Shown piece after piece: positions 15,194 through 24,026 of a stretch of 64,000 nucleotides of DNA. The position numbers and the translations under genes were made by a program. Origin of the DNA: Escherichia virus TH42. Positions within the stretch are counted from its first letter, which is position 1; every line of letters begins with the position of its first letter. The stretch is from the sequence record MT446413.1. The stretch is one strand, 5' to 3'. The notes beneath the pieces are model-generated. The model saw nothing but the letters and a program-made list of their open reading frames with translations, was not told where the DNA came from and made no database searches.

Positions 15194-15556
15194 TTACTCT
15201 GCTACCAAAAGGCTCAGAGATTTACGAATGTAGGCAATGCTACGGAAGTTTCGATAGTTCTCTTGGAAGCGCATCTTTTCAAATTCTGCTTCCTGAAGTT
15301 CTACCTCTGCTGCATTGTATCCTGCCACAGCCAAACTCACCACATCCTGAGGTAAGGTATTACGACGACGAATAAGATATTTATTCGCCTTTAGTTTGCT
15401 TTGTGCACGAGCCATTTTGGCCTTTGCCGCCTTAATGCCATGAGCAATCCAGAGCAGTTGCTGCTCCAAATCATTCTCGTCCATGCCACCCAAATCATTT
15501 GCTACTTTATGCAGCGTAGACAGGTTCACATGGCCTTTGATGGGGCGTAGGTTCAT
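15194..15556 (-). CDS. hypothetical protein
   Basis: 120 aa ORF; start ATG overlaps stop of upstream small ORF (ATGA). Confidence 0.4.
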   Translation of the reverse strand: MNLRPIKGHVNLSTLHKVANDLGGMDENDLEQQLLWIAHGIKAAKAKMARAQSKLKANKYLIRRRNTLPQDVVSLAVAGYNAAEVELQEAEFEKMRFQENYRNFRSIAYIRKSLSLLVAE

Positions 15557-15720
15557 AACTTCTCCTGTTTATCACATTGATTGGTCAGCCAGTTGTAAGC
15601 CCCTCTGTTGTTCTTGCTTAACTCACAAGATGCAAAAGAATAGGTTCTGACAAACCCCACGGTGGCTAAGCAAATAAAGATTGCTGCCAATAAGAACTTA
15701 ACTTTCAACTTATTATCCAT
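15553..15720 (-). CDS. small membrane protein (unlisted 55-aa ORF)
   Basis: ATG 15718-15720; MDNKLKVKFLLAAIFICLATVGFV... hydrophobic N-terminus; stop TGA overlaps next ATG; below ORF-track size cutoff. Confidence 0.35.
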   Translation of the reverse strand: MDNKLKVKFLLAAIFICLATVGFVRTYSFASCELSKNNRGAYNWLTNQCDKQEKL

Positions 15721-15740
15721 ACAACCTCTTCTTTGAACTT

Positions 15741-15765
15741 AAAAAAGGACTCTCCTAAGAGAGCC
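15741..15765 (-). terminator. intrinsic terminator (minus strand)
   Basis: Minus-strand RNA GGCTCTC-TTAG-GAGAGTCC followed by UUUUUU. Confidence 0.45.
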
Positions 15766-15904
15766 AAGCTTTAAGGCCAATTAAATAGATATCACCCAAT
15801 ATCTGTGGATAACCTGCTCTTAAAATATTCTATCCGACGGATGTTCGAGGACTATTCCTCTCCCTAGCATCGGCCCCATACGGGTAAGATTAAATTAAGT
15901 TTAG

Positions 15905-15956
15905 GTTAGTTGAGCCAGAATAGCTCACATAGCCCTCTGATACTCACAAGGGCTAT
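15905..15956 (-). repeat. conserved composite RNA element, copy 1 (8-bp hairpin + TCAACTAACC on minus strand)
   Basis: Plus: GGTTAGTTGAG...ATAGCCCT-ctgatactcaca-AGGGCTAT; immediately 3' of gene 15962..16210. Confidence 0.5.
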
Positions 15957-15961
15957 AGATG

Positions 15962-16210
15962 TTACTCTGTGGCTCCGTCAAAGCGAAGGATTGCTGTTGG
16001 AACAGGGATTACAACCATATCAAAATCTAAGCGGAAGAGGTGTCCTGTGCTCAGTTGAACTGCTGTTACAGGCTTAGCAATTCCTGAGACTTCTGCGGAA
16101 GGGATTCTGATAAAGAATTCTCCCGGATACTCAGGTGAATGAAACACTTCTCCCGCTGTCATATTTACCAACTTAATGTCGGGTACGGGTTGTTTATTTT
16201 CAATTTGCAT
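15962..16210 (-). CDS. small protein, PG(D/E)xF paralog family
   Basis: 82 aa; MTAGEVF...PGEFF and C-terminal VIPVP; followed by conserved hairpin element. Confidence 0.45.
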   Translation of the reverse strand: MQIENKQPVPDIKLVNMTAGEVFHSPEYPGEFFIRIPSAEVSGIAKPVTAVQLSTGHLFRLDFDMVVIPVPTAILRFDGATE

Positions 16211-16443
16211 TACAGACCCTTCTTGGCACGATCTTTGGCAGTTTTGCCAGTGCGGATACGATGGGAAACATTAACCAGCTCACCACCTTCGACGATAGTT
16301 ACGCTTTTGTTTTTCGCAATATCAAACACAGACTTCTCTGTTCCGCCTAGACGAATCTGACGCGGTTCACTTTGGGTCTGAGTTGACTTGGACTGGAACT
16401 GGAACGGCTGACGGATGGCATCAATTGCGCTAACTTTAGACAT
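16210..16443 (-). CDS. hypothetical protein
   Basis: 77 aa ORF in operon context. Confidence 0.4.
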   Translation of the reverse strand: MSKVSAIDAIRQPFQFQSKSTQTQSEPRQIRLGGTEKSVFDIAKNKSVTIVEGGELVNVSHRIRTGKTAKDRAKKGL

Positions 16444-16471
16444 GTTTTTATTACCTTAAATTAAAGAGAGA

Positions 16472-16885
16472 TTAAACAACGAATTGGAACGCTTCGTATC
16501 CAAACTTATAAGAGAAGTCATGCTTGAATTTCACTACACGACCACGGTCACGGAAAGATTTCAGACGAGTGATGAACCCAGCCATCGGCTCAAGGTCAAT
16601 AGGGCTACGAATCTTCATAGCTACAGAGTGCAGCTTGAAGCGCTTACCAGTGCTACAGGCCATCATCACATACTCCATACGAGTAGTCCAGATGTTGAGC
16701 ACCATGCTTGTTTTCTCCGCTGACCAACCAGTCTTACGGGCGATTTCCTTATGGATGTTAAGCTCCAAAGGAAGAGGGAATTGCTTGTTGAATGAAGCCG
16801 GATAAAGTTTGACCAGAAGATCAATGTTTTCTTTATACGTGAGGTAGGCCAATTTTTTGCTTACGTTGGGGAATTTCCCAGCCAT
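16472..16885 (-). CDS. ProQ/FinO-like RNA-binding protein
   Basis: 137 aa; KKLAYLTYKENIDLLVKLYPASFNKQFPLPLELNIHKEI...NIWTTRMEYV parallels the ProQ N-terminal domain (FP-CF, PLKIGI, YT-x2-W-x-Y). Confidence 0.5.
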   Translation of the reverse strand: MAGKFPNVSKKLAYLTYKENIDLLVKLYPASFNKQFPLPLELNIHKEIARKTGWSAEKTSMVLNIWTTRMEYVMMACSTGKRFKLHSVAMKIRSPIDLEPMAGFITRLKSFRDRGRVVKFKHDFSYKFGYEAFQFVV

Positions 16886-16904
16886 TTTTGAAGCTCCAAA
16901 ACAG

Positions 16905-16962
16905 CGCCGAAAAGAGAGGCGTCATAGTAGCTAAAGGGAGGAGAGAAGAGGGCTTATTTACT
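16905..16962. repeat. ~45-nt direct repeat, copy 1
   Basis: GCGTCATAGTAG ... AGAGAAGAGG(G)CTTA-TTTACT shared with 23476-23522. Confidence 0.45.
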
Positions 16963-17070
16963 TGCCTTTTTCTGTCCGTTAATGTACCAGATAACTGAGC
17001 CATCAGGCTGTCGCTGACCAAAGCCTTTCAGGTTAACCATTTCTTCTTCAGAGTAGGCACGTTTTCTCAC
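16954..17070 (-). CDS. possible small protein (38 aa, GTG start)
   Basis: GTG preceded by AGGAG SD at 7 nt; followed by the 45-nt repeat; track ORF 16833..17021 in another frame judged less likely. Confidence 0.25.
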   Translation of the reverse strand: MRKRAYSEEEMVNLKGFGQRQPDGSVIWYINGQKKASK

Positions 17071-17083
17071 TGATTTTCTCCTG

Positions 17084-17341
17084 TCAATAGAAGGTGTGTG
17101 TAGAGTCGTCGTTCATAGATAACCAAACGAAGAAGACAATCACACAGAAAGCAATAATACCGAGAATTGCAAGGATTATAGTGTTAGCTAATGTGATATC
17201 TAACACGCTTTGCAGATACATAAAGAACTGTACGACACCACATATCATTAGCACGACACCAACAACAATGAGGAGCCAATATGTGCAGAGAAGGGCTGCA
17301 TCCAATAGTGACACATATTTTGGATGATCTTTACGTTTCAC
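17084..17341 (-). CDS. membrane protein (two predicted TM helices)
   Basis: 85 aa; LLCTYWLLIVVGVVLMICGVV and ILAILGIIAFCVIVFFVWL. Confidence 0.45.
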   Translation of the reverse strand: MKRKDHPKYVSLLDAALLCTYWLLIVVGVVLMICGVVQFFMYLQSVLDITLANTIILAILGIIAFCVIVFFVWLSMNDDSTHTFY

Positions 17342-17597
17342 TAACCTTCTCCACTAAATCCAGAGTTGCTGATTCAAATACAACACCAACTGGCATATTA
17401 GGTGCCATATTACGAACGTACCCACTCTGCATAGACACGGCTCGAGAGTATTCAGAACCGTTAGAGCTTTTGTTTACTTTCATGTAAAGGGTTTGTTCTT
17501 TATCTTCTTTAAGGGTAAAGAAAGAACCGGGAAGAAGTCCCTGAACGGTTACAGGGATATCTGCAACACGAGTCTTATTGATAGTAAGGACTGTCAT
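17331..17597 (-). CDS. small protein, PG(D/E)xF paralog family
   Basis: 88 aa; GLLPGSFFTLK ... LYMKV. Confidence 0.45.
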   Translation of the reverse strand: MTVLTINKTRVADIPVTVQGLLPGSFFTLKEDKEQTLYMKVNKSSNGSEYSRAVSMQSGYVRNMAPNMPVGVVFESATLDLVEKVSET

Positions 17598-17600
17598 TAT

Positions 17601-17855
17601 TTATTCCTTAATAATTGCTTCAGCTTTAATAGGAATAACAGCAACATCTTTACGAGGCGCTGTCGCTCGGCCTGTGTTAAGACAGGCTACAAGTCTATGC
17701 TCGTCCGCACCCTTAATGCACAAGCGAGTGGAGAACTCTGTAGAGAGTAAGATGTATAAATCACCATCTTCACTGTTAGGGTACATGAAGCAATCCCCAA
17801 GTCGCAAAGCACTGAGGGGTATTGAATTTTTACCTGCTGGCATGTTAACTTTCAT
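17601..17855 (-). CDS. small protein, PG(D/E)xF paralog family
   Basis: 84 aa; LSALRLGDCFMY ... LYILL ... VAVIPI. Confidence 0.45.
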   Translation of the reverse strand: MKVNMPAGKNSIPLSALRLGDCFMYPNSEDGDLYILLSTEFSTRLCIKGADEHRLVACLNTGRATAPRKDVAVIPIKAEAIIKE

Positions 17856-18069
17856 TTAACCACCTTTAGTTATGGACCAATTTATGAGAGAACTCTCGGA
17901 AGAATGCTTTCATAAATAGGGGGGAGGGGACGAATCCTCCCATATCCTATTAATTAATGTTGCATGTAAGACCTAACAATCCGATGCTGTAGTGGATAGC
18001 GTAAAACGCTTACCGGCATTAAACCCAGCCCATGAGGGGCTTATGTGATTAAAATGCTCAACATTGAGC

Positions 18070-18110
18070 GGTTAGTTGATAGGAGATCTGAAGTCCTATC
18101 TCAAAGGACT
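18070..18110 (-). repeat. related composite element, copy 3 (different hairpin, same GGTTAGTTGA flank)
   Basis: Plus: GGTTAGTTGATAGG...AGTCCT-atctcaa-AGGACT. Confidence 0.35.
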
Positions 18111-18132
18111 CTCGTAAGAATCCTTCACGATA

Positions 18133-18399
18133 TTACTTAGTAATAAAGACTGTCACCTTATCCATTACCCAGCCTATCAACATAAGTAAAGGTAAGAAGA
18201 GGATAAAGATCAGCATAAAAGGCCAGAAGAATATCACCGTCCAAATAGAGTATTCATCAGGCTTACCACTCCATGAGGAATGGAAGAAGTTGTAGAGTGT
18301 ATTGGTTTTAAAGCACCATTTAACTACAATGGCTGCCAACCACCAACCAATAACATAAATCAGGAGGACATACGCTGCTGTAACCATTGACCGTTCCAT
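18133..18399 (-). CDS. membrane protein (multiple TM helices)
   Basis: 88 aa; highly hydrophobic (VLLIYVIGWWLAAIVV, FFWPFMLIFILFLPLLMLIGWV). Confidence 0.45.
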   Translation of the reverse strand: MERSMVTAAYVLLIYVIGWWLAAIVVKWCFKTNTLYNFFHSSWSGKPDEYSIWTVIFFWPFMLIFILFLPLLMLIGWVMDKVTVFITK

Positions 18400-18614
18400 T
18401 GATAGTTGCGAGTTACCACGTTTCCGTGGATAAGGAAGTGCTGGCGGCGAAGGATATCTTTAACGTTGTAGTAGGCAGCGTTACCGAGATGGCCTTCTTT
18501 GATAAGCCAGCGCAGATTACGAATATCAACCAACAACATGCTTACTTGTTGCTTGCATGAAGTCTGAGCCGCTGTTTCAATCAGAGATTTCGTATCAGAA
18601 TAATGACCAGACAT
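18360..18614 (-). CDS. hypothetical protein
   Basis: 84 aa ORF; overlaps downstream gene start. Confidence 0.35.
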   Translation of the reverse strand: MSGHYSDTKSLIETAAQTSCKQQVSMLLVDIRNLRWLIKEGHLGNAAYYNVKDILRRQHFLIHGNVVTRNYQWNGQWLQQRMSS

Positions 18615-18615
18615 A

Positions 18616-18915
18616 TCACCACTCCTTACCTGTTGTTGTCACAGAACCACCACACCACAATGCCGTATCAATCACAACCTTGTCTGGTGTAGACTTCTCT
18701 TCGTTGATAGACGGGTTGGCATTAGAACAGGTTGCCCCGTTGTAGCGCATATCAATCTCACCACTAGGAACCTTGTTCCCTGAATGCCAGCGAGATACGC
18801 ACACACCTTCTACCGATAATGCACACCATCCATCAGGACGATGCTGTACACAGCCTGTAAGAGCTACACAGGCGATAAAGATACAGGTTAAGGTAATTAC
18901 ACCACCCCAGCTCAT
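18616..18915 (-). CDS. Cys-rich lipoprotein
   Basis: 99 aa; signal peptide with lipobox LTGC ([12 protein letters not shown]); six further Cys. Confidence 0.55.
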
Positions 18916-19052
18916 GATCCCTCCTGAAGCGCCTTACGGCGGCTATCTCGCCAAGCCATCCATAGGTAGGTTTTAAGTTCTTCTCTTTCTTCTTCGCTGA
19001 ACAAAGGAGAAGTAAAGATATCATCGAACCACTCATTAAACTCAGGGGTCAT
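18912..19052 (-). CDS. possible small protein (46 aa), translationally coupled to lipoprotein gene
   Basis: ATG with GGAGG SD; [31 protein letters not shown]...; stop TGA overlaps lipoprotein ATG; preferred over track ORF 18833..19036. Confidence 0.3.
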
Positions 19053-19072
19053 AAACCCTCCTATTTGATTTG

Positions 19073-19224
19073 GTGGACTATCTGGAATCGAACCAGAAGC
19101 TCACTAAGAAAGCAATTCCCACTGTTATAAAAGCACTTGCCTCAACAGGGATACACTAACTCTGGTGCCGTACCCATACTAGCCCTTGTTTAAAATTGGT
19201 CGGGACGGAAGGATTCGAACCCTC
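19073..19224 (-). other. two tRNA 3'-half-like motifs (T-arm plus acceptor 3' strand) with no detectable 5' acceptor partner
   Basis: Minus strand TCTGG-TTCGATT-CCAGA (~19081-19097) and GAGGG-TTCGAAT-CCTTC-CGTCCCG-A-CCA (~19197-19224, CCA encoded). Confidence 0.3.
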
Positions 19225-19248
19225 TTACGTTGATTTAAAAGCTCTTAG

Positions 19249-19327
<79 letters not shown>

Positions 19328-19350
19328 ATTAAGAGCTTTCAATATTTTGT

Positions 19351-19560
19351 TTAACTGAAAATACGCAAGGCCACATCATGACCGATATGACCGGGAACTT
19401 TGTGCTGCTCTATTTTCAAACAGAGTTTACAAACACGAGACACACGAGACTCTTTCGCTTCGACTGGAGTGTCTTTAGCGTGAGTGATGTGTAGGTTTTC
19501 AGTGATCACCCACTCGTGTTTACATCCAGAATCTTCGGGCTTTTTCTTACGAAAGAACAT
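19351..19560 (-). CDS. small zinc-finger-like protein (tandem paralog 1 of 3)
   Basis: Start at internal ATG (MFFRKKKPEDSGCKHEWVITE...CKLCLK); H-x-H/E-W and CxxC pattern shared with the next two ORFs. Confidence 0.4.
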   Translation of the reverse strand: MFFRKKKPEDSGCKHEWVITENLHITHAKDTPVEAKESRVSRVCKLCLKIEQHKVPGHIGHDVALRIFS

Positions 19561-19568
19561 AATACCCC

Positions 19569-19733
19569 TTAGATCAGATCTGTTTTCTTGTGCAGACCAC
19601 ACACTTTACAGCGAGAGTAGATACGCAACCCTTGTCGCTCTCTGTCAGTAAGTTTATTTGTGATCGTCAGTTCATAAGTATGAAGATCTTCCCACTCATG
19701 GAAATGAAAGAAACGTTTGAACCATTTAATCAT
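19569..19733 (-). CDS. small zinc-finger-like protein (tandem paralog 2 of 3; unlisted 54-aa ORF)
   Basis: MIKWFKRFFHFHEWEDLHTYELTITNKLTDRERQGLRIYSRCKVCGLHKKTDLI; ATG 19731-19733; below track size cutoff. Confidence 0.4.
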   Translation of the reverse strand: MIKWFKRFFHFHEWEDLHTYELTITNKLTDRERQGLRIYSRCKVCGLHKKTDLI

Positions 19734-19742
19734 AATGATTCC

Positions 19743-19904
19743 TTAGATTACATCACGATGACTAACATCACCACACACCTTACACTGAATAACGTAACGT
19801 GTGCCCTTGTCATTGTTCCCATCTGAATCTGTATAGACCAGAGGACGGGTGTTAATAATCTTCCAATCATGACAATGGAAGACACGCTTTAGCCATTTAA
19901 TCAT
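19743..19904 (-). CDS. small zinc-finger-like protein (tandem paralog 3 of 3)
   Basis: Start at internal ATG (MIKWLKRVFHCHDW...CKVCGD). Confidence 0.4.
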   Translation of the reverse strand: MIKWLKRVFHCHDWKIINTRPLVYTDSDGNNDKGTRYVIQCKVCGDVSHRDVI

Positions 19905-19905
19905 A

Positions 19906-20196
19906 CTAAGCACACGCCGGTAATTCAATTAACTGAGGAGTACGACAAGGGCCATCCTCATACACACCTACTAGTGTTGGCATGTAAGGCCCAGCGCACT
20001 GGTATTCATCGAACAGTTCGTTATAGGTAGGCTTCCACTTCCAAGCCCACACATAGCCCATTCGATCAATGGCAATGTAACGAGTGTTCAGAGGAACCTG
20101 CATCATCACATCACCAACTGCTATTACTTTCGTAATAACTGCTGCTCGGAAGTTTGTCTTCATAGTCTCACCGCTTAACCATAAATTGATACTCAC
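19906..20196 (-). CDS. hypothetical protein
   Basis: 96 aa ORF in operon context. Confidence 0.4.
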   Translation of the reverse strand: MSINLWLSGETMKTNFRAAVITKVIAVGDVMMQVPLNTRYIAIDRMGYVWAWKWKPTYNELFDEYQCAGPYMPTLVGVYEDGPCRTPQLIELPACA

Positions 20197-20359
20197 GGAT
20201 CGAGTCTACGTACTCCAACACCGCAGACTCTAACGTTTCCCACACCGAAGCCGCCCCCTCGCCTACGAGAACCTCCCATAACTCCGGTGATATCTGCGTT
20301 AGTTTTATCGTCGGTTTACCCGCAGCCTTACTCACCCCTAAAATAATTTCTTCCTGCAT
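20168..20359 (-). CDS. hypothetical protein
   Basis: 63 aa ORF; overlaps downstream gene by 29 nt. Confidence 0.3.
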   Translation of the reverse strand: MQEEIILGVSKAAGKPTIKLTQISPELWEVLVGEGAASVWETLESAVLEYVDSIREYQFMVKR

Positions 20360-20385
20360 AGTCTCACCTCTATTATATTCACCAG

Positions 20386-20694
20386 TTAATCCGACAATGC
20401 CGCCATCATTTTATTCATTTTAGCCACACCTTTACGGATAAGTGGCATGAACTCATCGGCCAGTTCAGTGGATAAAAGTTTAAGACCACCTGATTTAATT
20501 CCATTCACTGCCTTCTCAACCTCATCCGACAGCAATGTCATTGTTAACAATGGGGATTTTATTACCACAGTAAAGCCCGGTTCGTACCGTGAGTGACTGT
20601 AGGTGAACTCTAAGTGAGTGACACCGGGCATCTTAGACATTTGAGCACGGATATCTACATTAGGGTTACAGTGGGTTGAAGATGAAATTGTCAT
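20386..20694 (-). CDS. hypothetical protein
   Basis: 102 aa ORF. Confidence 0.4.
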   Translation of the reverse strand: MTISSSTHCNPNVDIRAQMSKMPGVTHLEFTYSHSRYEPGFTVVIKSPLLTMTLLSDEVEKAVNGIKSGGLKLLSTELADEFMPLIRKGVAKMNKMMAALSD

Positions 20695-20942
20695 GGCTTT
20701 TTAATCTCAATCTGGACGTTGACAACAAATACAGTATGGTTTGCACTGTACACCGAAGTGCCTATGATTGGTTTGTCATCACTGAGGATTTCAACAGCGT
20801 GCTCAAGGTTAATCTTCAGATGAAGTCGACCTGATTCCATGAAGAAGTCACCAGCACGAATCTCACCAAACTTGGATGGCACACCGATAGAGGGTATCAG
20901 TATGTCAGTACGACCTTTACGGTCAAATAAACGATTGAACAT
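20691..20942 (-). CDS. small protein, PG(D/E)xF paralog family
   Basis: 83 aa; FGEIRAGDFFMESGRLHLKI ... VFVVNVQIEI. Confidence 0.45.
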   Translation of the reverse strand: MFNRLFDRKGRTDILIPSIGVPSKFGEIRAGDFFMESGRLHLKINLEHAVEILSDDKPIIGTSVYSANHTVFVVNVQIEIKKP

Positions 20943-20951
20943 ATCAACCCC

Positions 20952-21161
20952 TTATGTGATATCAACCTCAAACCAACAGGTAAGAGCTTTTTCATTGTTG
21001 CGCTTTGGTTCAAAGGATTTAGTAACTGATAACACCCGTCGCTGTTGTCCATCAAACCAGATAGTTTCATTTCTTTCAGGAAGTAGGTTGTGTGCAGCAC
21101 AAACGATTTCACCTAGCACAACCTGTCTGCCATCTTGTTTACGAACTAAATGAATGTTCAT
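20952..21161 (-). CDS. hypothetical protein
   Basis: 69 aa ORF. Confidence 0.4.
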   Translation of the reverse strand: MNIHLVRKQDGRQVVLGEIVCAAHNLLPERNETIWFDGQQRRVLSVTKSFEPKRNNEKALTCWFEVDIT

Positions 21162-21204
21162 ATCAACCTCTCTTATTAGTTTAAGTAAGAGTTATCCCTT
21201 AATT

Positions 21205-21235
21205 AAAACAACAAAGGCCACCCCGAAGGGCAGCC
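21205..21235 (-). terminator. intrinsic terminator (minus strand)
   Basis: Minus-strand GGCUGCCC-UUCG-GGGUGGCC (8-bp stem with G-U pairs) then UUUGUUGUUUU. Confidence 0.55.
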
Positions 21236-21627
21236 TCTTATTAATTATCCACCGTAAAACCAATCACCTTGACGTTTACGGATGTTAGTTGTCAGACGAA
21301 GCATGGCAGACTCAATCTTCAGAGCACCATTTGCTACTGCATCCATACGTTCAGGACGGTTCATACGCTTGGTTGACTTCTTCATAACGTTCTCTCTTTG
21401 TTAGTGGAGGCAGGATTGCCAGTTAATATAAAGGGAAGCCCTACACGTTAAGGCTTCCGCTTGTACAAACTGTCGAGAACTCTCTACCCCTAGATTGTTC
21501 TCTATCCCAAACCGATACATACCCCTACATATCGGAATGCCATTCGAAAATTAACAGGTTTTAGTCTATCACCGGATGTTTGAGACAAGTCTCGCCCTAG
21601 CGGTGAGCCATATGGCACTGAGATTAT

Positions 21628-21678
21628 GGTTAATTGAGGAACACCCTCACATAGCCCTCTGATAATCACAAGAGCTAT
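21628..21678 (-). repeat. conserved composite RNA element, copy 2
   Basis: Plus: GGTTAATTGAGG...ATAGCCCT-ctgataatcaca-AGAGCTAT; the G-to-A change keeps pairing only in the minus-strand RNA (U-G wobble); 3' of gene 21688..21912. Confidence 0.5.
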
Positions 21679-21687
21679 AAGTCGATG

Positions 21688-21912
21688 TTACTTGTTGGTC
21701 AGTCTAACATTAGGTACACGATATACCTCTGTTGGTTTACGATCAGAGGAACGTTTACCAGTGTAGAGGTTAACAAAATAGGTTTTGTGTTCCCCATAAC
21801 ACGAAGTACACATGTAGTATTGGGTTTCAGCAGTATTAAACTGGAAGACTTCACCCGGCTCTAAATCACCGAGAGTTACAACCGCTGGTGTATTGTCGAT
21901 ATCAATCTTCAT
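21688..21912 (-). CDS. small protein, PG(D/E)xF paralog family
   Basis: 74 aa; LGDLEPGEVFQF ... VPNVRLTN; followed by conserved hairpin element. Confidence 0.45.
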   Translation of the reverse strand: MKIDIDNTPAVVTLGDLEPGEVFQFNTAETQYYMCTSCYGEHKTYFVNLYTGKRSSDRKPTEVYRVPNVRLTNK

Positions 21913-22143
21913 TTAACCACCAATATTCGTTACTTGTACATTAGGTACAGAGATAACTTCATGATCTTCAGGTATCTGGAACAAAGTCCCCTGACCAAGA
22001 CCAACGACACGGTGCATACCCTGCACATAGGTGTCTGTCTTTAGGTAGAGGTGTTCAGTGTTATTTTGTAATCGGAATACGTCACCCGGACGTAACTCAC
22101 TAAGCTTTTTAGTAACAACTTCAGAGGAGAGATTGATTTTCAT
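21913..22143 (-). CDS. small protein, PG(D/E)xF paralog family
   Basis: 76 aa; LSELRPGDVFRL ... VPNVQVTN; tandem duplicate of 21688..21912. Confidence 0.45.
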   Translation of the reverse strand: MKINLSSEVVTKKLSELRPGDVFRLQNNTEHLYLKTDTYVQGMHRVVGLGQGTLFQIPEDHEVISVPNVQVTNIGG

Positions 22144-22299
22144 TTGATTAACACCAAATCAGTACGACGTTCGAAGGAAGGAGAGGATTCACCATTCCAC
22201 TGAACAAGATAACAGAGAACACCATCAATCGTTGTTCTCCGACGAATAACACCTGTTTGAGTACCGCCAACAAGGCGAACAGTGTGACCAGTGGTAAAC

Positions 22300-22605
22300 T
22301 TAACCTTTGAGCGCATCCTCTGTTTCCTCATTCTGGCGTTTAATTTCTTCAGTGAGTTGCTTATTGAGATCTTGAATACGCTTAATCTCCCAACCCAAAG
22401 AAGCCAAACGATCATTACGTGCTTCAATTTGCTCCTGCATCTTAACCAATTTGGAACGAACATCAGCATTAAAGACTTCCTCTTGCTTAAGAAGGAACTC
22501 ATAACGACGCTTCCAGCTTGCTGACTTATTACTTAAAGCAATAAATCCCAGAGTAGAAATCGTTACAGTGAGTACGAGAAGGAACTTATAAACCTCTAAA
22601 GACAT
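22300..22605 (-). CDS. i-spanin-like membrane protein (N-terminal TM helix plus coiled coil)
   Basis: 101 aa; FLLVLTVTISTLGFIAL then heptad-rich charged segment; adjacent to cell-wall hydrolase gene. Confidence 0.4.
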   Translation of the reverse strand: MSLEVYKFLLVLTVTISTLGFIALSNKSASWKRRYEFLLKQEEVFNADVRSKLVKMQEQIEARNDRLASLGWEIKRIQDLNKQLTEEIKRQNEETEDALKG

Positions 22606-22668
22606 ATCTTTATCCTCTTAAAGTAAGATATTATAAGAAATATTATTTAGAATTTATTATTTCTAAAC

Positions 22669-23193
22669 TTAATTTCTATCAATAATTTTCAGAGGTCTAT
22701 ATACAGTCATTACCTCTGGTTCCGAATCACTACCACTTTTTGCAGAGAAAATCATAAGTAGGTGATTTATAAGGGAATTTAGTTTGTCAATCTTGGCACC
22801 TATGAACCAGTCACGGGCACTATTATTGAACACTAAATCACCACAATACATTGGATTGGTATACCACTTTGGCACCCCTTCGCTCTTACTCTGAAAGTAT
22901 GTACCGCTATACAAAGGCACATAGCTTTTCTTCAGTGCACGTCTTGCAAGCTGCTCGCTCTCCCTGATTGACTTCTTTGTCAGAGGATTATCATCACGAA
23001 TTAGCTTTACATAACGTTTAAAAGGCTTCTCCTTCTTTAATAAGACGGGTATCCACTCGAACTGGTTTCGTTGTTTTATAACCTGCTCGGCAGTCAGTTT
23101 TCGTTGTGACATTCTGTTTATTACGGTATCCGCTACTAATGCTTTGCAAGCGGTTGGCTGATTCCCTGCCTCATAATAAATAGTCAATGTCAA
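22669..23193 (-). CDS. SleB-type cell-wall hydrolase (candidate endolysin)
   Basis: 174 aa, TTG start; motifs ALVADTVINRMSQ, NQFEW, PLYSGTYF resemble Hydrolase_2 (SleB) family. Confidence 0.55.
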   Translation of the reverse strand: MTLTIYYEAGNQPTACKALVADTVINRMSQRKLTAEQVIKQRNQFEWIPVLLKKEKPFKRYVKLIRDDNPLTKKSIRESEQLARRALKKSYVPLYSGTYFQSKSEGVPKWYTNPMYCGDLVFNNSARDWFIGAKIDKLNSLINHLLMIFSAKSGSDSEPEVMTVYRPLKIIDRN

Positions 23194-23244
23194 AAGTAGC
23201 TGGGCTGTCGTTATCAGAACTTACTACCCCCTTGTTTTACGGGC

Positions 23245-23272
23245 ATAAAAAAGCCCCATCCGAAGACGGGGC
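23245..23272 (-). terminator. intrinsic terminator (minus strand)
   Basis: Minus-strand GCCCCGUC-UUCG-GAUGGGGC then UUUUUUAU; two weaker hairpin+U-run structures at ~23327-23350 and ~23432-23452. Confidence 0.5.
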
Positions 23273-23475
23273 GACCTGAAAAGTGAACATGACCTCACTC
23301 GTTTAAGAACCCTCTCAAAGACTCTTAAAAAAGCGGCCTCATTAGAGGCCCGGTCAAATGACCATCCAATAGGGATTGAACCATGCCAATGATTCACAAA
23401 GGGCTTTCCCTTTAGGCATCACTAGCTACGCAAAAAGCCGCACAAAGGCGGCAGGCACAAAGACGCCCTAGAAGA

Positions 23476-23522
23476 GCGTCATAGTAGTTGACTACAGGTG
23501 TAGAGAAGAGGCTTACTTTACT
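23476..23522. repeat. ~45-nt direct repeat, copy 2
   Basis: GCGTCATAGTAG identical 12-mer plus AGAGAAGAGGCTTACTTTACT; overlaps stop codon of 23513..23956. Confidence 0.45.
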
Positions 23523-23956
23523 CTCGCTTCCTTGATAGGGTCTATGTATTTTTCGACTCCCCATTTATGCTGACTATCAGCGTAGAAAACATCCGGTGCA
23601 CATTGGCTGGTAGTAGGGAAAGCTTTCGGTGGCTTAGTGCTACCTTTATTCTTCTGCTTACCCTTAGTGCGGCCGTTACAATAGATTTCTAAACGTTTCT
23701 CTTCTTCTGTTTTCGCTGCACCGTTGGTTAACAAGGAACGTTTATGATCAGCAAGAAGAAGTGCATCAGCACGGTGAACACGACGCCCTAACACCTTTGC
23801 TACGGTAGACGGTTTATGTTCTTGAGCGGCTTGTTTGATAGCTCTACGTTTAAGGCTACGTTTGCTAACGTGGTTAGTAGCGACTGGCTTATCTTTTTCC
23901 AGTTCACTCATCGAGAACACACGCCCGCCTTTCATGCTGATTTTAGATTTAGCCAT
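23513..23956 (-). CDS. basic hypothetical protein
   Basis: 147 aa; Lys/Arg-rich, possible nucleic-acid binding; no motif recognised. Confidence 0.4.
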   Translation of the reverse strand: MAKSKISMKGGRVFSMSELEKDKPVATNHVSKRSLKRRAIKQAAQEHKPSTVAKVLGRRVHRADALLLADHKRSLLTNGAAKTEEEKRLEIYCNGRTKGKQKNKGSTKPPKAFPTTSQCAPDVFYADSQHKWGVEKYIDPIKEARVK

Positions 23957-24026
23957 TGCTTTATTCCTTTCGCTGATAAATTATATCGTGCAAGCCTTAC
24001 CACATAGCAAGGCTTAACCAAATAAC

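What the first reader, a model, noticed from the sequence alone, without database searches (positions are those of the whole stretch)
15962..22143. Six-member paralogous family of ~75-88 aa proteins with an N-terminal L-x-x-G-(D/E)-x-F motif
Seen in sequence: ORFs 15962..16210, 17331..17597, 17601..17855, 20691..20942, 21688..21912 and 21913..22143 share a motif (LRPGDVF, LEPGEVF, LRLGDCF, IRAGDFF, LLPGSFF, TAGEVF), a following LY-x-K-type strand and a C-terminal V-x-(P/V)-N-V strand; two are tandem duplicates. Inference: a small beta-rich domain expanded by duplication, which in phages often marks host-takeover or anti-defence effectors with diversified targets.
Basis: partly seen in the sequence, partly recalled or inferred. 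Interest (0 to 1): 0.5.

Follow-up and report, generated by a model that had tools for sequence, protein, structure and literature searches.

The report
Expanded small beta-barrel phage early proteins
Six small early genes of this phiEco32-like coliphage are true paralogues of one widespread, unnamed phage family with an SH3-like beta-barrel fold, whose function is untested but which looks like a swappable set of host-protein binders.

Summary
All six ORFs exist on the minus strand at the stated coordinates, in the early-gene cluster of a Kuravirus-like (phiEco32-like) coliphage.

A profile built only from non-Kuravirus relatives recovers five of them over their full length (E 3e-14 to 8e-21). 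It recovers the sixth, 20691-20942, weakly (7e-4). Profile-profile comparison gives 96-99.5% probability for all six, against 0.5% or less for reversed controls. No other ORF in the window belongs.

The family is large: 484 clusters at 50% identity, mostly 70-90 aa. It includes N4 gp21, LUZ24 gp7 and nine phiEco32 genes. Pfam, NCBIfam, PADLOC and PDB sequences give no match, and its PHROGs all carry 'unknown function'.

Copy number runs from 5 to 9 among close relatives. Two members (A, E) are gene-sized divergent cassettes in a backbone otherwise 95-100% identical. All six are under purifying selection.

The function is inferred, not shown. The best guess is non-toxic early binders of host or defence proteins. 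Interest is moderate.

The parts
21913..22143 (-). Member F (76 aa), closest to the family consensus; upstream gene of the tandem pair F-E
   Evidence: ORF. PHROG 16423 with cross-hits to 6570, 7832, 9955 and 7431. E 8e-21 against the non-Kuravirus profile. hhalign 99.5%. AF2 model pLDDT 87.6, pTM 0.73, six strands. dN/dS about 0.27.
21688..21912 (-). Member E (74 aa); starts directly after the stop codon of F; a divergent allelic cassette
   Evidence: 31.5% identical to F over 73 aa. E 3e-20. hhalign 99.4%. Only 55-58% identical to the Bas88 and ECBP2 copies although F next door is 95-100% identical. Absent from SU7 and PAS59.
20691..20942 (-). Member D (83 aa); divergent, with a 12-aa N-terminal extension and no T-G turn
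   Evidence: PHROG 22099 only. E 7e-4 against the non-Kuravirus profile, N-terminal motif only. hhalign 96.3%, E 1.9e-9, over the whole domain, against 0.2% for the reversed control. AF2 pLDDT 81.8, and its BFVD hits overlap those of F; this model is not independent because the family alignment was used. dN/dS 0.07.
17601..17855 (-). Member C (84 aa); upstream gene of the tandem pair C-B; longer beta4-beta5 loop
   Evidence: PHROG 7832. E 2e-17. hhalign 98.9%. dN/dS 0.07, and 95-100% identical among relatives.
17331..17597 (-). Member B (88 aa); 3 nt downstream of C; extra C-terminal tail
   Evidence: PHROG 12612 with weak reciprocal cross-hits. E 3e-14 over full length. hhalign 97.6%. dN/dS 0.18.
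15962..16210 (-). Member A (82 aa); acidic (pI 5.0); a divergent allelic cassette
   Evidence: PHROG 6570. E 8e-18. hhalign 99.4%. 62-77% identical to the copies in relatives, with synonymous divergence (dS) about 0.9, whereas flanking genes are 96-100% identical.

Best explanation
The six genes are paralogues of one large, uncharacterised phage protein family. Each is a single-domain protein of about 75 aa with an SH3-like small beta-barrel fold. The family signature is MKI-x8-V-x-F-x-DL-xx-G-D-V-F ... L-Y-M-K-T ... A-V-N-L-x-T-G ... E-V-I-P-V.

Shown here:
- The six are homologous.
- The fold class is SH3-like.
- They sit in tight early operons of a phiEco32-like phage.
- They are arranged in tandem, and copy number varies from 5 to 9 among relatives.
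- Two members are exchanged as gene-sized cassettes.
- All six are under purifying selection.

Inferred, not shown:
- They are made early from host sigma70 promoters, by analogy with phiEco32.
- They are soluble, non-enzymatic binding modules. The conserved hydrophobic core and the two glycine turns hold the barrel, while the variable hairpins and surface give each paralogue its own partner.
- The partners are host proteins or anti-phage defence components.
- They may act as homo- or heterodimers, as suggested by recurrent tandem pairs and natural two-domain fusions.

My confidence in family, fold and expansion is about 0.9. My confidence that they are protein binders acting on host or defence factors is about 0.45, and for anti-defence specifically about 0.25.
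For: Homology:
- PHROG cross-hits.
- Subfamily hhalign results.
- The non-Kuravirus profile.
- 96-99.5% probability against the broad profile, with reversed controls at 0.5% or less.

Size and membership of the family:
- 484 clusters at 50% identity with E <= 1e-3, nearly all 68-97 aa full-length matches, and about a dozen two-domain fusions among the top 150.
- N4 gp21 matches at E 1.5e-20 and LUZ24 gp7 at E 1.6e-8.
- phiEco32 gp95-98, 104, 109 and 113-115 are members.

Fold:
- AF2 gives pLDDT 87.6 and pTM 0.73, all-beta.
- BFVD matches are uncharacterised proteins of many phage groups.

A binding module rather than an enzyme:
- Only core and turn positions are conserved (G20, F23, Y33, V47, L49, G52, V63), and the hairpins are hypervariable with indels.
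- The family's median pI is 5.8.

Early and accessory character:
- The phiEco32 early cluster is sigma70-transcribed and the most diverse part of the genome (PMC8948821).
- Relatives carry 5-9 copies.
- A and E are sharply bounded divergent cassettes against Bas88.
- A member in a T5-like Vibrio phage lies 1.5 kb from the genome end.

Functional genes: dN/dS is 0.07-0.3.

Not a growth inhibitor: LUZ24 gp7 was one of 13 early genes tested and did not inhibit growth (PMC4635203).

Neighbourhood hints:
- A member pair sits directly upstream of a Gad2 homologue.
- Another pair sits next to a NAPRTase-family gene.
Against: - No interaction, phenotype or target is known for any member.
- The neighbourhood hints are two anecdotes, not a survey.
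- Gene-wide dN/dS gives no sign of positive selection. The divergence of A and E looks like exchange of old alleles, not recent adaptation.
- C and D are highly conserved, which fits a housekeeping role in infection as well as it fits an arms race.
- The top structural neighbours are translation proteins (L2, EF-P), so a role at the ribosome or on RNA is not excluded.
- Dimerisation is only suggested by gene order and fusions. No multimer model was run.
- Early expression is taken from phiEco32, not measured for this phage.
Confidence: 0.5

Rival explanations
1. They act on translation or RNA. As SH3-like barrels of the L2 / EF-P / KOW type, they would dock on the ribosome or on RNA to redirect host gene expression early in infection.
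For: - The family turns 'DL-x-x-G' and 'NL-x-T-G' resemble EF-P domain I by eye.
Against: - Profile-profile comparison with EF-P domain I is at noise level, 2.7%.
- No EFP_N, KOW or L2 Pfam hit appears in 140 members.
- The hairpin that carries the modified lysine (PGKG) in EF-P is the most variable part here.
- The proteins are mostly acidic to neutral, with median pI 5.8 and only 12% above 8.5. That is unusual for RNA binders.
Confidence: 0.12
2. They bind RNA polymerase. As Tudor-like domains of the CarD / TRCF-RID / UvrD-CTD kind, they would help switch transcription from host to phage.
For: - These phages rely on host RNAP and remodel it.
Against: [quoted passage not shown]
- gp79 is helical and unrelated.
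- N4, which transcribes its early and middle genes with its own polymerases (my own knowledge), also has a member.
- LUZ24 gp7 is not growth-inhibitory.
Confidence: 0.06
3. They are antitoxin-like neutralisers. Like the SH3-like antitoxin VapX, each member would bind and block a host toxin of a toxin-antitoxin or abortive-infection system. This is a special case of the anti-defence reading.
For: - The proteins are small, acidic and non-toxic.
- Members behave as allelic cassettes.
- Members lie next to Gad2 and NAPRTase-family genes.
Against: - There is no sequence relation to VapX or to any antitoxin Pfam family.
- No toxin gene is paired with them in the phage.
- The fold match is generic.
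Confidence: 0.12
4. The resemblance is chance, or the ORFs are non-functional remnants of duplications.
For: - Pairwise BLAST scores are weak except for E-F.
- D matches only through its N-terminal motif in plain HMM searches.
Against: - Profile tests with reversed controls reject chance.
- The family has 484 clusters of full-length matches.
- The structure models are confident.
- dN/dS is 0.07-0.3.
- All six have ATG starts, and five of the six have clear ribosome-binding sites.
Confidence: 0.02

Closest known systems
Uncharacterised phage proteins N4 gp21, LUZ24 gp7 and phiEco32 gp95-98/104/109/113-115 (PHROGs 6570, 7832, 7431, 12612, 16423, 9955, 8365, 22099)
   Same: They belong to the same sequence family, with the same length, motifs and predicted fold. 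They likewise sit among small early or middle genes.
   Different: None has a known function. The databases split them into at least eight separate 'unknown function' PHROGs and no Pfam family, so the unity of the family and its expansion are not recorded.
Translation-protein SH3-like domains (ribosomal L2 C-domain, EF-P/eIF5A domain I, KOW)
   Different: There is no detectable sequence relation (hhalign 2.7%; no Pfam hits). The family has no PGKG lysine loop, is a stand-alone protein rather than a domain, and is acidic to neutral.
Tudor-like RNA-polymerase-interacting domains (CarD, TRCF RID, UvrD C-terminal domain)
   Different: There is no sequence relation. phiEco32 members were not recovered with RNAP from infected cells.
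VapX, the SH3-like antitoxin of VapD
   Different: There is no sequence relation. No toxin partner gene accompanies these genes, and they are phage early genes rather than a chromosomal toxin-antitoxin pair.
phiEco32 gp79, the small early/middle RNAP regulator of the same phage group
   Same: It is also a small protein of about 80 aa from the leftward-transcribed region of Kuravirus genomes that acts by binding a host protein.
   Different: gp79 is alpha-helical and binds the beta' N-terminus and gp36 (PMC12276001). It is unrelated to this beta-barrel family.

Membership tests
Phage 'MKI...GDVF...YMK...TG...VIPV' small beta-barrel family (unnamed; several PHROGs) | Significant full-length match to a family profile built without the query's own clade | tested here: met
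   F, E, A, C and B score E 8e-21 to 3e-14. D scores 7e-4 in HMMER but 96.3% (E 1.9e-9) in hhalign. Reversed controls give 0.5% or less.
Phage 'MKI...GDVF...YMK...TG...VIPV' small beta-barrel family (unnamed; several PHROGs) | Single domain of 70-90 aa carrying the near-invariant residues G20, F23, G52 and V63 (numbering of F) | tested here: met
   G20 and F23 are present in all six. G52, in the T/S-G turn, is present in five and missing in D. V63 is present in all six.
Phage 'MKI...GDVF...YMK...TG...VIPV' small beta-barrel family (unnamed; several PHROGs) | Predicted all-beta SH3-like barrel | tested here: met
   F model: pLDDT 87.6, six strands. D model: pLDDT 81.8. BFVD hits to other members have TM 0.7-0.87.
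EF-P / eIF5A domain I and KOW (translation-protein SH3-like) | Fold similarity | tested here: met
EF-P / eIF5A domain I and KOW (translation-protein SH3-like) | Sequence-profile relation, and the conserved basic loop (PGKG lysine in EF-P) | tested here: not met
   hhalign gives 2.7% probability. No Pfam EFP_N or KOW hits appear in 140 members. The equivalent hairpin is hypervariable.
Tudor-like RNAP-interacting domains (CarD / TRCF-RID) | Association with RNA polymerase | tested here: not met
   This rests on literature only. RNAP from phiEco32-infected cells carried gp36 and gp79 but none of the nine members (PMC12276001). It was not tested for the window's own proteins.
AbrB/SpoVT swapped-hairpin barrel (considered because of the L-x-x-G-D motif) | Pfam SpoVT-AbrB match, and a swapped-hairpin dimer fold with internal duplication | tested here: not met
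Known anti-defence protein families (e.g. Gad2, Tad, Acb and others present in Pfam) | Sequence match to a described anti-defence family | tested here: not met
   There are no Pfam, NCBIfam or PADLOC hits. dbAPIS and AntiDefenseFinder were not available.
VapX-type antitoxin | Adjacent cognate toxin gene and direct toxin binding | not testable with these tools

The most novel reading that the evidence does not exclude
The family is a pan-phage diversifying scaffold: a stable SH3-like barrel whose variable hairpins are re-tuned to block different host immune or hub proteins. Under this reading members work as homo- or heterodimeric pairs, which would explain the recurrent tandem pairs and fusions. 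They are also swapped between otherwise identical phages as cassettes that set which strains can be infected. The six genes here would then be six distinct inhibitors.
Probability: 0.2. Interest if true: 0.7.

Novelty: new variant of a known kind. Interest (0 to 1): 0.4.

Why it matters
Most early genes of lytic phages are unexplained, and this result joins several of them. It ties at least eight 'unknown' PHROGs, and genes of the model phages N4, phiEco32 and LUZ24, into one family with a confident fold.

The work also shows that the family expands, contracts and is exchanged as cassettes between near-identical phages. That gives a concrete and cheap experiment: swap or delete A and E in Bas87- or Bas88-type phages and plate the mutants on wild E. 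coli strains and on defence panels.

If the members turn out to be inhibitors of host or immune proteins, the family would be a rich source of new inhibitors and a marker for accessory regions. If they do not, it remains a well-defined domain of unknown function that deserves a Pfam entry.

Tried and rejected
1. Relation to phiEco32 gp79, the known small RNAP binder. Rejected: gp79 is helical.
2. AbrB-like or cradle-loop 'GD-box' barrel with an internal duplication. The split-half hhalign gave only a weak signal (up to 43%, controls 3.3% or less), and the model is an SH3-like barrel. Rejected as a fold assignment and kept only as a curiosity.
3. Descent from EF-P domain I. Rejected at sequence level (2.7%).
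4. The search for related loci with family alignments A3 and A5.
5. A degenerate DNA pattern (GDVF...AVNLxTG) scanned over IMG/VR. It gave 13 loci, of which only 4 held members, so it was too inefficient for a neighbourhood survey.
6. The third homologous-protein search, run with the broad alignment. It added only a few sequences.
7. CRISPRi-ART and transposon-mutagenesis papers. They hold no Kuravirus or N4 gene-level data that I could use, and PTXU04 did not look like a relative.
8. The afdb50 fold library. Not installed.
9. A model of a natural two-domain fusion, to test dimer packing. Not run, because MAFFT aligned all single-domain sequences to the first half only, so the second half would have been folded almost without an alignment.
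10. Literature searches for N4 gp21, Kuravirus paralogues, and SH3-like anti-defence proteins. Nothing specific was found.
Full report
**Where we are.** The 7 kb around the finding is 91-95% identical to many phiEco32-like podophages of E. coli (Kuravirus and Suseptimavirus, subfamily Gordonclarkvirinae). The best matches are HC-25922, IME267, Bas87, Bas88, ECBP2 and SU7, and every gene under the match is annotated 'hypothetical protein'. In phiEco32 this leftward-transcribed right-hand part of the genome is the early cluster. It is read by host sigma70 RNA polymerase, is the most variable part of the genome, and is assumed to serve host takeover (PMC8948821; PMC9965538).

**The observation.**
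- All six ORFs are present on the minus strand at the stated coordinates. I label them A 15962-16210, B 17331-17597, C 17601-17855, D 20691-20942, E 21688-21912 and F 21913-22143.
- All start with ATG, and five of the six have a clear purine-rich ribosome-binding stretch upstream.
- F-E and C-B are adjacent, with gaps of 0 and 3 nt.

**Is the similarity real?**
- Raw BLAST is convincing only for E-F (31.5% over 73 aa). A-F and C-F are modest but colinear.
- PHROG profiles give each protein its own family, all of 'unknown function'. A, C, E and F cross-hit each other's families at E 1e-5 to 1e-9. B does so weakly but reciprocally. D does not.
- Using orthologues from the protein database, hhalign between subfamily profiles gave F-E 97.4%, F-A 97.2%, E-A 91.7%, F-C 85% and F-D 82.5%. 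All are colinear, and all reversed controls were below 1%.
- A full HMMER scan of 1.84 billion cluster representatives found 484 proteins at E <= 1e-3. Nearly all are 68-97 aa and matched end to end.
- A profile made only from those distant relatives, with no Kuravirus sequence, recovers F, E, A, C and B at E 8e-21 to 3e-14 and D at 7e-4. The next best of 383 ORFs scores 0.36, so the window has no seventh member.
- Against that broad profile, hhalign gives 99.5, 99.4, 99.4, 98.9, 97.6 and 96.3% for F, E, A, C, B and D, with reversed controls at 0.5% or less.
- One caveat applies. The distant relatives were originally fished with a profile that included the six subfamilies, so the test is not fully independent. 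However, hits of 40-50 bits across all profile positions cannot come from one subfamily alone.

Similar variants that match mainly through the N-terminal half exist in phiEco32 (gp98, gp109).

**What the family looks like.**
- The consensus is MKI-x8-V-x-F-x-DL-xx-GDVF-x8-LYMKT-x~10-NAVNL-x-TG-x-L-xx-F-xx-D-x-EVIPV-x-AELVI.
- Conserved positions are hydrophobic core residues and two glycine turns (G20 100%, F23 99%, G52 98%, V63 91%, L49 89%, V47 86%), plus an acidic residue after G20 and a basic residue at position 35.
- The hairpins 24-31, 37-45 and 53-62 are hypervariable, and the middle one carries indels.
- No constellation of residues suggests catalysis.
- Median pI is 5.8.
- There is no match in Pfam (six proteins and 140 members), NCBIfam, PADLOC or PDB sequences.

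**Fold.**
- AlphaFold2 with the family alignment gives a confident all-beta model for F (pLDDT 87.6, pTM 0.73, six strands).
- The fold class is therefore clear, but no specific relative emerges.
- The eye-catching resemblance of the two turns to EF-P domain I does not survive a profile comparison (2.7%).
- A weak internal-repeat signal between the two halves of the domain (up to 43%, controls 3.3% or less) is recorded but not relied on.
- The D model (pLDDT 81.8) retrieves largely the same phage proteins from BFVD as F does. It was built with the family alignment, so it is only a consistency check.

**Distribution and dynamics.**
- Structure and sequence searches place members in Kuravirus, N4-like phages (N4 gp21, E 1.5e-20; EP335 has three), LUZ24 (gp7), T5-like Vibrio phages, and assorted Proteus, Serratia, Erwinia, Klebsiella and Cronobacter phages.
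- In the syntenic early region, copy number is 6 in this window and in Bas88, 7 in ECBP2 and PAS59, 5 in SU7 and 9 in phiEco32. phiEco32 has runs of four (gp95-98) and three (gp113-115).
- Tandem pairs recur in three of five unrelated metagenomic loci, a fourth locus holds a two-domain fusion, and about a dozen of the top 150 hits are two-domain fusions.
- Against Bas88 the backbone is 95-100% identical, and divergence is confined to a few sharply bounded blocks. Two of these are exactly genes A (65-85%) and E (60-83%), while F next to E is 100% identical.
- Pairwise dN/dS is 0.07 for C and D, 0.18 for B, and 0.2-0.3 for A, E and F.
- The genes are therefore functional. The divergence of A and E, with synonymous divergence (dS) about 0.9-1.3, is exchange of old alleles, not demonstrable recent positive selection.

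**Function.** Nothing is known experimentally except one negative result. LUZ24 gp7 was among 13 early genes expressed in P. aeruginosa and did not inhibit growth (PMC4635203 and its Table S2). A second indirect point comes from phiEco32: RNA polymerase purified from infected cells carried only gp36 and gp79, not any of the nine members (PMC12276001).

Two metagenomic members lie directly beside genes linked to counter-defence:
- a Gad2 homologue;
- a NAPRTase-family gene. Enzymes of this family take part in phage NAD+ salvage against NAD-depleting defences; that link is my own knowledge, and the example is an anecdote.

My best reading is that these are non-toxic, early-made binding modules. 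Their variable surfaces target different host or defence proteins, and they possibly act in pairs. I put this at about 0.45 overall and at about 0.25 for anti-defence specifically. Roles at the ribosome or on RNA, binding to RNA polymerase, and antitoxin-like neutralisation are the rivals. Chance or junk is excluded.

**Novelty.** The fold is ordinary, and the individual genes are already catalogued as hypothetical proteins. Three things are not recorded:
- they form one large family spanning several model phages;
- they are expanded to 5-9 copies in Kuraviruses;
- single members behave as swappable cassettes.

I rate the finding as a new sequence family within a known fold and a known kind of gene (small early phage accessory proteins), with moderate interest.

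Noticed in passing
window 19249-19327 (minus strand); surrounding block 19087-19386: Rfam calls a tRNA here (36.4 bits, gathering score 29), but ARAGORN finds none. The sequence differs from the tRNA-Arg that relatives carry at this spot: only the T-arm and the ends of the acceptor stem align, and the D region is longer. The whole block is non-homologous to Bas88.
   Followed up: partly
window 19569-19733 and 19743-19928 (minus strand); possibly also 19351-19602: This is a second tandem paralogue pair of 54 and 61 aa, 41% identical (E 1e-13). Both share (I)KW(F/L)KR.FH.H.W ... C-K-V-C-G, which looks like a small zinc-ribbon-type motif. The third ORF is only weakly similar. These genes have the highest dN/dS in the region (0.44-0.47) and are 49-98% identical among relatives.
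   Followed up: partly
window 20167-20700: An insertion of about 540 bp relative to Bas88 carries two ORFs. ORF 20168-20359 (63 aa) is absent from all four relatives compared. ORF 20386-20694 (102 aa, PHROG 3566) is present only in PAS59. The insertion abuts the stop of family member D.
   Followed up: partly
window 18616-18915 (minus strand): A 99-aa ORF with a lipoprotein-like N-terminus (L-T-G-C) and PHROG 4281. It is another local divergence hot-spot: 75-78% identical to relatives, dN/dS about 0.33, in a backbone more than 95% identical.
   Followed up: no
window 15500-24000, minus strand: Terminator-like hairpins are about twice as frequent as in shuffled sequence (13 against 6.3 +/- 2.6). 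Several lie between gene blocks, for example 21238-21213, 21458-21434, 23272-23253 and 15765-15748. The 520-bp stretch 21162-21687 upstream of the next gene block has no convincing ORF.
   Followed up: no
family-wide; F residues 14-36 against 46-68: The two halves of the domain carry similar hairpin motifs, L-x-x-G-D-V-F-...-L-Y-L-K and L-x-x-G-x-L-F-...-V-I-S-V. Split-half hhalign gives up to 43% probability, against 3.3% or less for reversed controls. This hints at an ancient internal duplication but does not establish it.
   Followed up: partly
L004 406-1017; L024 350-1675: In metagenomic phage contigs, tandem pairs of family members lie directly next to a Gad2 (anti-Gabija) homologue and next to a NAPRTase-family gene.
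   Followed up: partly
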